This document shows positions 20,613-26,205 of a DNA stretch of 64,000 nt, one piece after another. Position numbers and translations under genes: made by a program. This DNA comes from the human T2T-CHM13v2.0 reference genome, Homo sapiens, in assembly GCF_009914755.1 (NCBI RefSeq), contig NC_060925.1; one strand, given 5' to 3'. Below the pieces are notes generated by a model that made no database searches, had not been told where the DNA came from, and was given only the letters and a program-made list of their open reading frames with translations. The first letter of the stretch is position 1; each line of letters starts with the position of its first letter.

Positions 20613-21360
20613 CTGAAAATCAAGCAAAAGTTGCTTCTCAATAATACGTCCCTATGTCAGAGCAGCACTAACATATAATGACTTATTTCATATATTTTAC
20701 ATTCTAACGGTCCATATCATTTTACTGCTTTCAAGAAAAAATTTCCCCTTTTTGGTGGTTCTTAGAATTGGTTTAATGGGAGACTATTAGAGAAGCTGAA
20801 AAGCAGGAGGGCAGAAAAGTTCAATCAAATTAAACACAATAACAGGGAGGTCACAATGAGGCGGTCTCCCGGGGTCTTTTAGCAAACTTCCTAAAACATG
20901 TCTCAGCTGTGTGAAATAAGACTTTACAGCAGCCGGGTGCAGTGGTGCAGGCCTGTAATCCCAGCACTTTGGCAGCAGAGGCAGGCGGATCGCTTTGAGC
21001 TCAGGGCAACATAGCCAAAACCCCCCTCCCTAGCCCCACCCCCACCCCGTCCCTACCAAAAATACAAAACAGCAGGGCATGGTGGCGGGCGCCTGCAGTC
21101 CCAGCTACTCAGGAGGCTGAGGCAGGAGAATCATCTGAACCCAGGAGGCAGACATTGCAGCGAGCCAAGATCACGCCACTGCTAGCCTGGATGACAGAGC
21201 AAGACTCCACCTCAAAAAAACAAAAACAAAAACACAAGATTAAGAGGGACCCCCGACCTTACAGATACAAGTTTAAGAGGGACCCCTAAGCAAAAAATGC
21301 CAACCCTTTTTCTCCCAATCATTGTAACACCAGGAGGGTGTAACAGTTTTGCAGCCTAGC

Positions 21361-21790
21361 TGTAGCAGGCTGATGCCCCCAAGATGCCCATATCCTAATC
21401 CCGGGAACTGGTGAACATGACCTTATATGGCAAAAGAGGCTTTGCAGATATAATGAAGTTAAGGGTCTTTGGCTTTTGGGGTTGATGTACTCACTCGGAT
21501 CCTTGTAAGAGCAGAGCAGGTGATGGGAGAGGGTGGGAGGTGTAGTGACAGAAGCAGGAAACTCCAGTCATTCGAGACGGGCAGCACAAGCTGAGGAGTG
21601 CAGGCCACCTCTACCGCCAGGAAACGGATTCTCCCGCAGAGCCTCGGAAGCCACCGACCCTGCTCCCACCTTGACTCAGTAGGACTTACTGTAGAATTCT
21701 GGCCTTCAGACCTGTAAGGGAATACATTTTGGTTGTTTTAAGTCACTAAGTGTGTGGTAATTTGTTGCAGCAGCCACAGGAAACTAGTAT
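21361..21790 (+). mobile_element. MLT1 (MLT1D-like) MaLR LTR
   Basis: tgtagcaggctga..gaccttatatggcaaaag..ttgttttaagtcactaagt..gcagcagccacaggaaacta. Confidence 0.8.
21495..21711 (-). other. Candidate non-coding exon (217 nt) exonised from antisense MLT1
   Basis: attcccttacag|GTCTGA...CCGA|gtgagt. Confidence 0.55.
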
Positions 21791-24700
21791 TGTAGTGAAG
21801 CCTCAAAACCCCCCTGAAGGGGCTGGGCTCAGTGGCTCATGCCTGTAATCCCAGCACTTTGGGAGGCCGAGGTGGGTGGATCACTTGAGGTCAGGAGCTC
21901 GAGACCAGCCCAGCCAACATGGTGAAATGCCATCTATACAAAAAATACAAAAACTAGCCGGGCATGGTGGCACATGCCTGTAATCTCAGCTACTCAGGAA
22001 GCTGAGACAGGAGAATTGTTTGAACCCAGTGGGGCGGAGGTTGCAGTGAACTGAGATTCCACCACTGCACTCCAGCCTGGGTGACAGAGCGACGCTCCAT
22101 CTCGAAAACAAAACAAAACAAAAAAACCCCACCTGAAGGTTTCCAGTTCTGCCAGCAGTCTCCCACCCAAGCCCCAGAAGCAGACATTCCATTGCTGTGG
22201 GCCATGGACAGGCAGAAGGAAGCACCTCCTCATGGCAGAGGCCTACCCAGGAGAAACCCAAGGGAAGGCACTGCTGGGCTGGCCCCTCTCTGCCAAGGCC
22301 ATATTCTTTTTTTTTTTTGAGGCCAGTTTCACTCTGTCTCCCAGACTGGAGTGCAGGGGCACAATCTCGGCTCACTTCGACCTCTGCCTCCCCAGTTCAA
22401 GTGATTCTCCTGCCTCAGTCTCCTGAGTAGCTGGGATTACAGGAGTGTAGCATGCCTAGCTAATTTTTGTATTTCTAGTAGAGATGGGGTTTTGCCATGT
22501 TGCCCAGGCTGGACTCGAACTCCTTGCCTCAAGTAGTCCATCTGTCTCAGCCCCGCAAAGTGCTGGGATTACAGGAGTGAGCCACTGCACCCAGCATTTG
22601 CCAAGACCTTTGATGGCAGGCTTTTTCCAGGTGATCAGTCCTTGTCTGGTCTGGCTCTGCCCCACTCTCCTTCTCACCTAGTTGGAATCCCTAGCTACTT
22701 TTCAGTAGAGGAGAGTGTGTACCCCAATCCCAGCTTGGTTCAGATCTGCATTTAACTCATGGAACCTGGCTGCTCCCCAGGTCCTGAAGAAAAAAAGGGT
22801 CTCTCTGTGGGTATGATAAAGGATGGGCCTGTCCCCAGGACCCTGTGAGAGGGAAGCCCAATGTCCCACCAGGTTGGCAGGGCTGGGGAAGGGAAAGTGT
22901 TATGGCAGCCCCAAGGAAAAAAAGAGGCAGCAGAGGGAGCAGGACAGCACTCACGTGGAACTCATGCCACTGCCTGAGTGAGGGGAGGGAGGAGTGCACG
23001 CCAGTGACGTCAGGGGGCAGAGAGGCACAGTTCCAGGGCGGCTTTCCCCCTCACTTCCTGCCATGTTACTCTGATCGCCTCCAGGTGAGCCTGTCCACTT
23101 TGTGCCCAGGGGCCTGTAGAAAACCACAGCTCCCCATGGTTATGGCCCCAGGAGTGGGGCAGAGCAGGGAGGAGTCCTGGACAGAGGAGAGGCAGGGGCA
23201 GGAGGGAGTGGGCCTCAAACTCCAGGAGGGGGCCCTTCTCATGGGTCCTGCTTTCTGGCTTCTCCTTCCTTACCCCTGGGCTGATCACTCGGGGAAGAAC
23301 TGAGACAAAGTTTCTCACCCTCAGGCCCAAAGGGTTTAATTACTGGGCCCTTAGGGAGGTGTGAGCCCCCTGAAAGGATGCAAGGTTTTGTTTTGTTTTG
23401 TTTTTTGAGACAGAGTTTCGCTCCTGTCGCCCAGGCTGGAGTGCAGTGGCATGATCTCACCACACTACAACCTGTGCCTCCCAGGTTCAAGTGATTCTCC
23501 TGCCTCAGCCTCCGGAGTAGCTGGGATTACAGGTGGCTGCCACCACACCTGGCTAATTTTTTGTATTTTTAGTAGAGACAGGGTTTCGCCATGTTGGGCA
23601 GGCTGGTCTTGAACTCCTGACCTCAGGTGATCCGACTGGCTCCGCCTCCCAAAGTTCTGGGATTACATGAGCCACTGTGCTTGGCCACGATGAAAGGTTT
23701 TGTGTGGAGAGCATGTACATGCCTTTCTGGGAAAACAGTCCACAGCTCTTATTCTCAGCAGGCTTCACGGTCAAAAATGGTTAGAACTCTTGCTACAGAG
23801 CTGTGGAAGCAGCCAGGTGAGGGGCCTGCCAAGGGCACTCTGGGCACTACCTGGGCACTCTCTAGCCCATCATCCCCTAGGCAGGCTGCACTGCTTGGTA
23901 TTTGCAGAGCTGAGGGGGTGGGGCATGTGGGGACTGTGAAATCGCCCTGAGATGACCCACAGTCCTCAGCTGGGAAGTGAGCAGTGCATCTCCTGCAGCG
24001 TCCTCCATCCCTAGAGCCATGGGGCCAGGAGAACTGGCCCTTGCAGCAAGTGAAAAGCCTATTATTGACTCCCTCCCTAGCCATGTAGACAGTGAACCAA
24101 GACACTCATATCAGGCAAATGCCTTGTTCTCTGTTACCGAGGTAACCAGTAGGCATTCCCAGATACAGTGAAGGTCCTCACACCAAGATATGCACCTGGC
24201 CACCTGAGGAAAGAGAAAGGACTATCTGAGGGGATGGGGCTGAGCTGGGTGTGGAGTGGTCCTTGTGGGTCTTGGAGAGTGGGAGGGGGAGCAGCATGAG
24301 CCAGGCCTCGAGGCAGAAGGACAACCAGGAGACAGCCTGGAAAAAGTGCTGGACCCACAAGGGCTCAAGGCTGGCCAGAGGGGAGGTGGGATAGGCTGCA
24401 AAGTCCTGAGGTCTGAAGATTGGCCCTGGCAGGAAGAAACCAGGTAAGGTGGGGTGTTACCTACACCCTCGGGGCCAGATGCAGGCCAGAGCCAGCCAAT
24501 TACCAGGCCCTTAGGGAGGTGTGAGCCCCTTGAAATGACGCAAGGTTTTTTGTTTTTGTTTTGGAGACGGAGTTTCGCTCTTGTCGCACAGGCTGGCACC
24601 TTTGCCCAGAGCAGGCACCAAGACTTCTGGCTCTGGGTGTGACCTCAGTCTGAGTAAAAGCCCCAGCCCCCACCAGGACCACCTACCCCCTAGACTACTT

Positions 24701-25006
24701 CAGGTGCTGAGCCCAAGCCAGGGGCAGGAAGCTAAACTGATGCCTAGGGTAATCCCAGCAAAGTCCCTGGTTCCCCGCAGCTATGGGGCTGATGGGGAAT
24801 TACAGCCCAAACCCCAGATGCTGGCTATCAAACTAACACTGAGCCCTCAGTGCCCACAGGGAGATACAATCAGCGCACTTTCCAGATGGGGAAATGGGAT
24901 CAGAGAAGTGCAACAGCCTTGCCCAATGCCCCAGACCAGGGCTCCAGGCCCAGAGTGTTCTTTTGTCACTGTGTTCAGAGGGCAGCAGCTGCTGTGATGT
25001 ACCCAC

Positions 25007-25138
25007 CTGAGCCTGGCAGCTTTCTCCAACTTTGGAAGCCCAGGAGCGTGGCCCCTGTCCACAGATGCACCTGGCATGAGGCGTGCCCAGAGGGACAGAG
25101 GCAGATGAGTTTCGTCTCCTCCACTGGATTGTGAGGGC
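25007..25138 (-). other. Candidate non-coding exon (132 nt) within the retroposed insert
   Basis: gtctccttctag|GCCCTC...CTCAG|gtgggt. Confidence 0.6.
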
Positions 25139-26205
25139 CTAGAAGGAGACAAGGGTCTGCTTGGGAAGGCAGTGAATAGCGAGCAGCCTGAGGCAGTGCC
25201 CCTCTGGATGGATGCACAGTGCCTGGATGGAACCTGGCTCAGACAGAGCTCAGTTCTGCAGGTCCCTGAGGCATGGAGAGTTCACAGCTACCAAGCGTAG
25301 GAGTCTGGATTCAAAGCCAACGGCGTGACTCCAAAGTCCCTGCCCTAGCCCCTGGACCACCCTTGCAGGCCCATCAGATGCCCAGGCCAGCAGCACAGCC
25401 GGCCAAGACCAGGGAAACTTGGGGAGCCTCAGAGCACCCCCAGGTATTCCAACCTAACCCTGGTGCCCCGCCTCTCACCACCCTTCTTCCTGCTTTAACC
25501 TCAACCCCTACACAAAGCCTGGGCCACTTAATGTGGCATCAAACAGACGCCTCAATAAATCAGTCTAATCTCGAAAAAAAAAAAAGACTTAACAGATACA
25601 CAATTGCACGTTAGAATGCTAAAGACCATAAACATATAACAACTTAAAGTACATATAAATTCAATATATATCCAATCATTGTAACTATGACACAGTAGAA
25701 TATTAAAATACTATTTTCAAAATGTATACAAGCTTAATGTTCTATGTATTCAAACTATTTATTCAAAATACAAATCATCAACATAAATTGCCACTAATAT
25801 TCAGTCCCTTCACAGGACACATGATTCACTGGGAGTTAATAAATTAGCAGCCGGCAGGCAGTGACACACAGCAAAAATGAAAACCAAGAGGTGAAATAGT
25901 TCTGAAATAAAGGTTTTAAAGCTAACAGAAATCACTGAATTACTAAGTCATTAGCACTCATTTTGAGCCAACTAACTAATTAATATGAGATGATACAACG
26001 TCCTATACTTTGGTAAATACAGACTATGTTTAAACAATGTCTGTAACATGACTTGTAAAATGCTCCTGGCTTTACAAAGATGTGATTAAGATGTAGTAAC
26101 ACATGCTAAACCATTTCCCCCTGCAGAGCATGTGGTAACTTTCATCAGTCACATTGAGAGTCCAGAAGATAAAGGAAAAGGTCATGGATTTCGCTGAGAA
26201 CTTAC

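What the first reader, a model, noticed from the sequence alone, without database searches (positions are those of the whole stretch)
21270..25600. ~4.3-kb polyadenylated, TSD-flanked insertion with no L1/SVA body: candidate orphan 3' transduction
Seen: GC-rich sequence sits in an AT-rich GTF2I intron between exons A and B. It ends in AATAAA (25554), a 14-nt spacer and A12, and is bounded by a 15-bp direct repeat (13/15 identical). The content looks genomic (MLT1, a MIR-like piece at ~24880, Alus, no credible ORF), and the AATAAA lies in an L2-tail-like motif. Known: these are hallmarks of target-primed reverse transcription, and 5' truncation of an L1 read-through RNA leaves only the flank. 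Inference: an old retro-mobilisation of foreign non-coding DNA, later amplified with the duplicon. Repeat and gene annotation would not show it as a unit.
Basis: partly seen in the sequence, partly recalled or inferred. Interest (0 to 1): 0.8.

Follow-up and report, generated by a model that had tools for sequence, protein, structure and literature searches.

The report
Remnant of an ANKRD54 processed pseudogene
The GC-rich block is the 3' end of an old reverse-transcribed copy of the chromosome 22 gene ANKRD54 that landed in an intron of a GTF2I pseudogene and was later copied around the genome, so it is an ordinary kind of element and not an L1 transduction.

Summary
The sequence features are real: AATAAA at 25554, a 14-nt spacer, A12, a 13/15 direct repeat, and GC-rich DNA in AT-rich GTF2I-type intron. 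The unit and its origin were misread.

- **Empty site.** Three chr7 GTF2I-region loci hold an empty site. The true target-site duplication is AAGACTT(T/A)ACAG, at 20918-20929 and 25584-25595. The insert therefore starts about 340 bp further left and includes the Alu at 20932-21233.
This is internal sequence. It is also present in the parent locus.
- **Parent.** Window 21251-24100 is 76-81% identical to the 3'UTR and downstream DNA of ANKRD54 on chr22.
- **Proof of retrocopy.** A basal paralog on chr10 has the same target-site copy and the same Alu, followed by spliced ANKRD54 cDNA. The window's lineage lost the coding part through a ~1.3-kb internal deletion.
- **Open points.** The last 1.47 kb before the poly(A) (24101-25573) has no counterpart anywhere else in this genome. 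Whether the Alu joined by template switching or by nested insertion is unresolved.
- **Spread.** About 24 loci carry the insert.

Orphan L1 transduction is rejected. Interest is low to moderate.

The parts
20918..20929 (+). Left target-site duplication T1, AAGACTTTACAG. It is followed by 2 extra bases (CA, 20930-20931).
   Evidence: The empty site in L034 (chr7:75.93 Mb) runs from the left flank straight into the right flank with one copy of this motif.
20932..21233 (+). Full-length Alu with an A-rich tail, lying at the 5' end of the insert inside the TSD pair. It looks AluJ-like by eye, from recall.
   Evidence: It has the same position and the same flank in chr10, in the old chr7 copies and in the young copies. 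It is absent from the GTF2I empty site.
21234..21254 (+). Internal-deletion junction. This is the remnant of the first of two 33-nt tandem units of the ANKRD54 3'UTR. The coding sequence and about 550 nt of 3'UTR are missing here.
   Evidence: The chr10 paralog keeps both units and the spliced coding part. CAAG(G/T)T is shared at both deletion ends (read by eye).
21255..24100 (+). ANKRD54 3'UTR and read-through-derived sequence. It carries three later Alu insertions at 21821-22126, 22304-22595 and 23386-23686.
   Evidence: It is collinear with chr22:38291099-38293026 (minus strand) at 76-81% identity, and chr22 lacks the three Alus. The chr22 gene is ANKRD54.
24101..25573 (+). Segment X, the 3'-terminal 1.47 kb of the retrocopy, with no surviving source. 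It contains a 115-bp patch at 24484-24598 that copies 23338-23439.
   Evidence: Only paralogs match genome-wide: 19 of 19 candidates and 19 of 19. There is no match in 30 kb around ANKRD54, while the positive control scores E=4e-82.
25554..25559 (+). AATAAA polyadenylation signal.
   Evidence: It is conserved in the paralogs.
25574..25585 (+). A12 poly(A) tail. The run is 10-16 A in most of the other copies scored.
25584..25595 (+). Right target-site duplication T3, AAGACTTAACAG. Its first two A bases overlap the tail.
25586..25600 (+). It is part T3 and part unduplicated right flank.
21057..25138 (-). LINC01347 exons 21057-21210, 21495-21711 and 25007-25138. They are taken from the antisense strand of the inserted block.
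   Evidence: Exon coordinates are from the hub's gene table. The splice dinucleotides of 25007-25138 were read.

Best explanation
**What it is.** The block is the 3' remnant of a processed pseudogene of ANKRD54 (parent on chr22q13).

**How it formed.**
1. A spliced ANKRD54 mRNA, truncated at the 5' end about 80-100 nt after the ATG, ran through the gene's present poly(A) signal into downstream DNA.
2. That RNA ended at an AATAAA further on. It was reverse-transcribed and inserted, antisense, into an intron of a GTF2I-derived pseudogene. This is the hallmark of L1 target-primed reverse transcription.
3. The insertion created a 12-nt target-site duplication, AAGACTT(T/A)ACAG. A full-length Alu sits at the insert's 5' end inside that duplication.
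4. After the chr10 paralog split off, a ~1.3-kb internal deletion removed the coding sequence and the first ~550 nt of the 3'UTR. The remaining UTR now abuts the Alu tail, which is the state seen in the window.
5. Three more Alus and a 115-bp patch were added. The host duplicon then spread to pericentromeric chr7 and later to many subtelomeres.
6. The antisense strand now supplies three LINC01347 exons.

**Shown:** the parent gene, the splicing, the TSD with its empty site, the deletion and the amplification.
**Inferred:** L1 as the enzyme source, an age of roughly 45-65 Myr, and segment X being lost chr22 downstream DNA.
For: **Empty site.** In L034 (chr7:75.93 Mb) the left flank ending ..GAAATAAGACTTTAC runs directly into the right-flank sequence. 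All three chr7 GTF2I-region copies have the two flanks 344 bp apart, against 4,693 bp in the window. In L034 that gap is about 40 bp of flank plus an unrelated Alu with its own AAAGAACA repeat; the other two copies were not read.

**Parent.** Window 21251-21808, 22123-22299, 22611-23391 and 23687-24100 align collinearly to chr22 at 76-81% identity. The alignment starts about 550 nt after a stop codon. The exon 1 translation is 100% identical to human ANKRD54.

**Retrocopy proof.** The chr10:46.03 Mb paralog has the same flank, T1 and Alu. It then carries ANKRD54 sequence in 6 exon blocks collinear over 11.4 kb of chr22 with the introns absent, followed by the last exon and 3'UTR.

**Same event.** chr10 and the window lineage share T1, the Alu and a 33-nt tandem duplication that chr22 lacks.

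**Tree.** A tree rooted on chr22 places chr10 basal. The copies carrying the deletion form the remainder.

**Read-through.** The only AATAAA or ATTAAA in the first 3.2 kb after the chr22 stop codon lies at +1064. Homology continues 1.4 kb beyond it.

**Tail.** The poly(A) signal, the A-run and T3 were found together in 13 of the 14 other young 10-kb loci, in chr1:223.18 Mb and in chr7:66.29 Mb.
Against: - The window copy itself contains no exon-exon junction. Its processed nature rests on the chr10 paralog being the same insertion.
- The last 1.47 kb (24101-25573) has no counterpart at chr22 or anywhere else. The 3' end of the template RNA therefore cannot be tied to ANKRD54 directly.
- There is no canonical splice donor at the chr22 breakpoint (read by eye).
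- The 12-mer TSD alone is not statistically decisive in 64 kb. There are 3 matches against 0.61 expected, and 3 of 100 shuffles reach 3. The case rests on the empty site.
- No other primate genome could be consulted, so the age is only a divergence estimate.
Confidence: 0.9

Rival explanations
1. Multipartite chimeric retrocopy. In a single L1 reverse-transcription event the enzyme copied a polyadenylated RNA X (24101-25573). It then switched to an ANKRD54 read-through RNA and finally to an Alu RNA. This would give Alu, ANKRD54 and X inside one TSD pair. It refines the best explanation rather than contradicting it.
For: - The Alu, with its A-rich tail, sits 2 nt after T1 and directly abuts ANKRD54 exon 1 sequence in chr10.
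- I could find no convincing TSD of the Alu's own. The best candidate is AGCAG against AGCTG, read by eye.
- X has no source at or near ANKRD54 or elsewhere.
- Template switching that gives chimeric retrocopies is described in print (passages of PMC5470649; listing of PMC13174262).
Against: - The same structure arises if the Alu inserted first and the retrocopy later landed in its A-tail, or if the Alu later hit the junction.
- There is no A-run at the ANKRD54/X junction at 24100.
- X needs a lost source under this model too, so the model explains nothing extra.
- chr22 shows local rearrangement at the breakpoint, namely a duplicated GCCATGTAGACAG motif and a 41-bp tandem repeat. That fits a local deletion.
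Confidence: 0.25
2. Orphan L1 3' transduction. An L1 read-through RNA was truncated at the 5' end so that only the non-L1 flank was inserted.
For: A poly(A) signal, an A-tail, a TSD and no L1 body are all present. The definition comes from passages of PMC7058536.
Against: - The same insertion in chr10 carries spliced ANKRD54 exons reaching to within about 100 nt of the start codon.
- The RNA therefore started at the ANKRD54 promoter region and was spliced. It was not an L1 read-through.
Confidence: 0.02
3. DNA-level segmental duplication or gene conversion between chr22 and the GTF2I-pseudogene locus, with no RNA intermediate.
For: There is collinear 76-81% homology over about 2 kb of non-Alu DNA. 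The host region is very prone to duplication.
Against: - Introns are absent in the chr10 copy.
- A poly(A) tail sits directly before the TSD.
- The GTF2I loci hold a precise empty site with a 12-nt duplication.
Confidence: 0.03

Closest known systems
Processed pseudogenes (L1-mobilised retrocopies of spliced mRNAs)
   Same: - An intronless copy of a parent gene on another chromosome (seen in the chr10 paralog).
- A poly(A) signal and tail.
- A 12-nt TSD, an empty site and 5' truncation.
   Different: - In the window only UTR and read-through sequence survives an internal deletion, so protein-based pseudogene finders would miss it.
- The template extended 1.4 kb or more past the parent's present poly(A) signal.
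- The last 1.47 kb has no surviving source.
Orphan L1 3' transductions (as defined in PMC7058536, passages seen)
   Same: A unique non-L1 sequence with a poly(A) tail and TSD and no L1 body. It arises from read-through past a weak poly(A) signal.
   Different: The read-through was of a cellular gene's poly(A) signal, not an L1's. The RNA was spliced ANKRD54 mRNA.
L1-mediated chimeric retrocopies formed by template switching (PMC5470649, passages; PMC13174262, listing only; the Alu-mRNA chimeras of Buzdin and colleagues are recalled, not seen)
   Same: An Alu with its A-tail is fused head-to-tail to a 5'-truncated mRNA copy inside one TSD pair.
   Different: A single event cannot be told apart from nested insertions here.
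GTF2IP13-derived subtelomeric duplication families (PMC6226469, passages seen)
   Same: The host duplicon is the same kind. It has GTF2I-pseudogene exons beside CICP and SEPT14 pseudogene pieces, an ancestral copy on proximal chr7p, and spread to many chromosome ends.
   Different: That paper's text has no occurrence of ANKRD54, retro or processed. It does not describe the retrocopy carried by the duplicon.

Membership tests
Processed pseudogene | Homology to the parent mRNA with introns removed | tested here: met
   The chr10 paralog of the same insertion shows 6 exon blocks collinear over 11.4 kb of chr22. The window copy itself keeps only 3'UTR-derived sequence.
Processed pseudogene | Poly(A) tail at the 3' end, downstream of a poly(A) signal | tested here: met
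   AATAAA at 25554, a 14-nt spacer and A12. This is conserved in the paralogs.
Processed pseudogene | Target-site duplication with a matching empty site | tested here: met
   T1 at 20918-20929 and T3 at 25584-25595 match in 11 of 12 positions. The motif occurs once in the uninterrupted GTF2I locus L034. The same 344-bp flank spacing holds at 3 of 3 GTF2I-region loci.
Processed pseudogene | Identified parent gene at another locus | tested here: met
   ANKRD54 on chr22. The exon 1 translation is 100% identical to the human protein.
Orphan L1 3' transduction | The sequence derives from DNA immediately downstream of a source L1 | tested here: not met
   The source is the ANKRD54 transcription unit, with spliced exons upstream in the chr10 copy.
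Orphan L1 3' transduction | No L1 body, with a poly(A) tail and TSD | tested here: met
   This feature is shared with processed pseudogenes and does not discriminate.
Template-switch chimeric retrocopy | Two or more unrelated RNAs joined in the same orientation inside one TSD pair | tested here: met
   The Alu and ANKRD54 lie between T1 and T3. X is of unknown origin.
Template-switch chimeric retrocopy | The parts lack TSDs of their own, indicating a single event | tested here: inconclusive
   No clear TSD of the Alu's own was seen (by eye). An insertion into the A-tail would leave an A-only TSD that cannot be recognised.

The most novel reading that the evidence does not exclude
The insert may be a single-event, multi-template chimera (Alu, ANKRD54 read-through mRNA and RNA X). 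Alternatively, its last 1.47 kb may be a molecular fossil of ANKRD54 downstream sequence that has since been deleted from the human chr22 locus and survives only in some 18 retrocopy paralogs.
Probability: 0.3. Interest if true: 0.45.

Novelty: new member of a known kind. Interest (0 to 1): 0.25.

Why it matters
- **Annotation.** The work turns an unexplained GC-rich block into a defined element and corrects its boundaries.
- **Pseudogene detection.** An internal deletion can strip a processed pseudogene of all coding sequence. It then escapes protein-based pseudogene annotation.
- **LINC01347.** Three of the gene's exons come from the antisense strand of the Alu-plus-ANKRD54 retrocopy. Its paralogs are likely to share this.
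- **Duplicon history.** The insert, its deletion, the later Alus and the 115-bp patch are ordered markers. They help reconstruct the history of the GTF2I-pseudogene duplicon that populates many human chromosome ends.
- **Open question.** The sourceless 1.47 kb is the only item that remains unexplained.

Tried and rejected
Rejected, because:
- the left copy is present in the chr22 parent and the old paralogs;
- the match is at chance level;
- the empty site places the boundary elsewhere.

**chr1:223.18 Mb as an empty site.** Rejected. It lacks window 21238-25426, which is offset from the insert's ends by about 300 and 160 nt, and it belongs to the 97% family. It is a secondary deletion.

**Searches for a source of segment X.** All were negative.
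- Own-genome searches with the window copy, (19 of 19 candidates are paralogs).
- An own-genome search with the older chr7 copy (19 of 19 candidates are paralogs).
- Sensitive blastn and nhmmer on 30 kb around ANKRD54.
- A profile of 8 paralogs. It found only patch and Alu-type hits, while the positive control scored E=4e-82.
- The first-look stage of the genome search works on shared words, so a source below about 75% identity could have been missed.

**Splicing at the chr22 breakpoint.** No GT follows the last homologous base (by eye).

**A possible 23-nt resumption of homology.** It would follow a 25-nt gap in chr22 (by eye). It is too weak to use.

**Other negatives.**
- ORFs: 0 of 3 have a Pfam match.
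- Rfam: no match.
- Literature: 0 papers hold ANKRD54P1. 2 papers hold both ANKRD54 and pseudogene; the one I opened is unrelated. 21 papers hold LINC01347, 10 are listed, and none of the listed titles concerns its origin.

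Full report
**Observation.** The described features are in the sequence.
- AATAAA lies at 25554-25559, followed by a 14-nt spacer and A12 at 25574-25585.
- GACCTTACAGATACA (21255-21269) matches GACTTAACAGATACA (25586-25600) in 13 of 15 positions.
- The block between them is 50-60% GC. The DNA to its right is 32-40% and the non-Alu DNA to its left 36-40%.
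- Three ATG ORFs of 90 aa or more overlap it. 0 of 3 match Pfam. Rfam finds nothing.
- On its own the 15-mer pair is not above chance. Allowing up to 3 mismatches, the window holds 3 matches against 2.37 expected.

**Genomic setting.** Searching the window's own assembly with 23700-25570 gave 15 full-length copies at 96-100% identity, counting the window itself. They lie mostly at chromosome ends, on chromosomes 1, 3, 4, 7, 9, 10, 11, 16, 19 and 20. The search also gave three older copies at 84-89% on chr7 (56.28, 66.29 and 66.99 Mb) and one partial match at 81% on chr22.

The older chr7 copies are collinear with the window through both flanks. Where I read it (chr7:66.29 Mb), the copy carries the same AATAAA, A-run and following flank. 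The insertion therefore predates that duplication.

**The flanks and the empty site.** The right flank (25586-26829) and the left flank (20244-20931) each also match three chr7 loci, at 74.38, 75.93 and 76.42 Mb. The right flank matches at 81% and the left at 72-73%. In all three loci the two flanks lie 344 bp apart, compared with 4,693 bp in the window.

A Pfam GTF2I-domain search places these loci among rows of GTF2I-repeat exons. It also finds a domain remnant at window 17145-17258 on the minus strand. A published account derives these subtelomeric duplication families from a GTF2I pseudogene (GTF2IP13) beside CICP and SEPT14 pieces on proximal chr7p (PMC6226469, passages seen).

Reading chr7:75.93 Mb (L034) shows the uninterrupted site. 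The left flank ending ..GAAATAAGACTTTAC continues directly into GGATATATAGTTGCA.., which is the window's right flank. The 344 bp there are about 40 bp of flank plus a different Alu with its own AAAGAACA repeat.

The true target-site duplication is therefore AAGACTTTACAG (20918-20929) and AAGACTTAACAG (25584-25595). The inserted unit runs from about 20930 to 25585. It includes the Alu at 20932-21233.

It is internal to the insert. The chr22 locus contains it, as GACCTTAAAAATACA, contiguous with the homologous interior. The old chr7 copies have that same spelling. In 13 of the 14 other copies scored for the right junction, the right flank reads ATATACA where the window reads ATACACA. The 13/15 score is a coincidence sharpened by later substitutions.

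**The parent.** Window 21251-21808, 22123-22299, 22611-23391 and 23687-24100 align collinearly to chr22:38291099-38293026 on the minus strand, at 76-81% identity. chr22 lacks the three Alus that separate these pieces in the window.

On chr22 the homology starts about 550 nt after a stop codon. The translation of the first exon of that gene is 100% identical to human ankyrin repeat domain-containing protein 54.

The only AATAAA or ATTAAA within 3.2 kb after the stop codon lies at +1064, and homology with the window continues 1.4 kb past it. That signal appears by eye to sit in an MLT1-type LTR, a label I recall rather than tested. The template was therefore a 3'-extended, read-through form of the ANKRD54 transcript.

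**Proof of an RNA intermediate.** Four further loci match only the left flank, at 80-83% identity. I read three of them.
- chr7:77.45 and 67.71 Mb have the window's structure.
- chr10:46.03 Mb has the same flank, the same T1 and the same Alu with its A-rich tail. ANKRD54 coding sequence then follows.
- That coding sequence falls into six blocks collinear over 11.4 kb of chr22 with the introns missing. It continues through the last exon into 1.1 kb of 3'UTR.
- Homology to exon 1 begins about 100 nt after the ATG, directly behind the Alu tail.

In its 3'UTR the chr10 copy carries two tandem 33-nt units where chr22 has one.

The window lineage therefore suffered a deletion of about 1.3 kb, from just behind the Alu tail to the middle of unit 1. 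CAAG(G/T)T is present at both ends. The deletion removed the coding sequence and about 550 nt of UTR.

A tree of the shared 565-nt segment, rooted on chr22, places the copies in this order:
1. chr10, basal;
2. chr7:56.28 Mb;
3. chr7:77.45 and 67.71 Mb;
4. the young family.

The tree used 20 sequences. Copies that lack this segment were left out: C4:121.9 Mb, C1:223.18 Mb, and chr7:66.29 and 66.99 Mb.

**Age.** Non-CpG K2P distance between the retrocopies and chr22 is 0.17-0.20 over 507-560 sites. Between the window and the old paralogs it is 0.09-0.15, and within the young family 0.007-0.022.

Assuming 1-2 x 10^-9 substitutions per site per year, and given that a dimeric Alu is shared by all copies, the insertion is roughly 45-65 Myr old. 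The subtelomeric spread dates to the last few Myr. Both figures are inferences, and no other primate genome was available to test them.

**What remains open.**
- *Segment X.* Window 24101-25573, the terminal 1.47 kb that carries the poly(A) signal, matches nothing but paralogs. Whole-genome searches gave 19 of 19 candidates as paralogs and again. The 30 kb around ANKRD54 gave nothing, with a positive control at E=4e-82. Either the chr22 downstream DNA was later lost, or X came from another RNA by template switching. chr22 does show a local duplicated motif and a 41-bp tandem repeat at the breakpoint.
- *The Alu at the 5' end.* It has no recognisable TSD of its own. It may have joined by template switching. 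It may have been there first, with the retrocopy landing in its A-tail. Or it may have hit the junction later. The data do not discriminate between these.

**Verdict.** This is a processed pseudogene remnant, which is an ordinary kind of element. Orphan L1 transduction is excluded by the spliced ANKRD54 exons in the chr10 copy of the same insertion. I found no printed description of it: 0 papers hold ANKRD54P1, and the duplicon paper's text does not contain ANKRD54, retro or processed. Gene-annotation tracks could not be consulted.

Noticed in passing
L017 (chr1:223,172,001-223,182,000) against window 21238-25426: This 97% paralog lacks 4.19 kb covering almost the whole insert. The break is offset from the insert's ends, so it is a secondary deletion and not an empty site.
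   Followed up: partly
window 24484-24598 and 23338-23439: A 115-bp patch inside segment X copies the sequence just before, and the first ~50 nt of, the Alu at 23386-23686 (85-88% identity). Both the patch and that Alu are absent from the old chr7 copies, so both arose in the ancestor of the young family.
   Followed up: partly
L018 (chr5:181.85 Mb) against the window: This paralog's homology runs over window 18362-23686 and stops at the end of the Alu at 23386-23686. It marks a duplication or rearrangement boundary at an Alu.
   Followed up: no
window 17145-17258, minus strand: A partial Pfam GTF2I-domain match (29.8 bits against a cut-off of 27) lies inside LINC01347 exon 16726-17248. The same remnant is found in 13 paralogs.
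   Followed up: partly
window 21057-21210, 21495-21711 and 25007-25138, minus strand: Three LINC01347 exons are drawn from the antisense strand of the inserted Alu, the ANKRD54-UTR part and segment X. Exon 25007-25138 has AG and GT splice dinucleotides on the minus strand.
   Followed up: partly
L036+L038 (chr10:46,030,520-46,033,519): The ANKRD54 retrocopy here is disabled, for example by an in-frame TAG in the first ankyrin region. It jumps from chr22 38300132 to 38294837 within 2 nt, so any exon in that interval is missing through skipping or deletion. It also carries its own later Alu, and it leaves homology with the window after about 22145.
   Followed up: partly
L014 6511 (chr22:38,292,511) against window ~21715: ANKRD54's only canonical poly(A) signal in the first 3.2 kb of its 3'UTR lies in what looks like an MLT1-type LTR (label from recall). 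The matching site in the window copy is mutated.
   Followed up: no
L009, L019 and L012 (chr7:66.29, 66.99 and 56.28 Mb): These old copies carry an extra Alu right after TTTAAGAGGGACCC. In the 66-Mb pair, window 21290-23300 is missing beyond it. L012 lacks 25448-25684, which includes the poly(A) signal and T3.
   Followed up: partly
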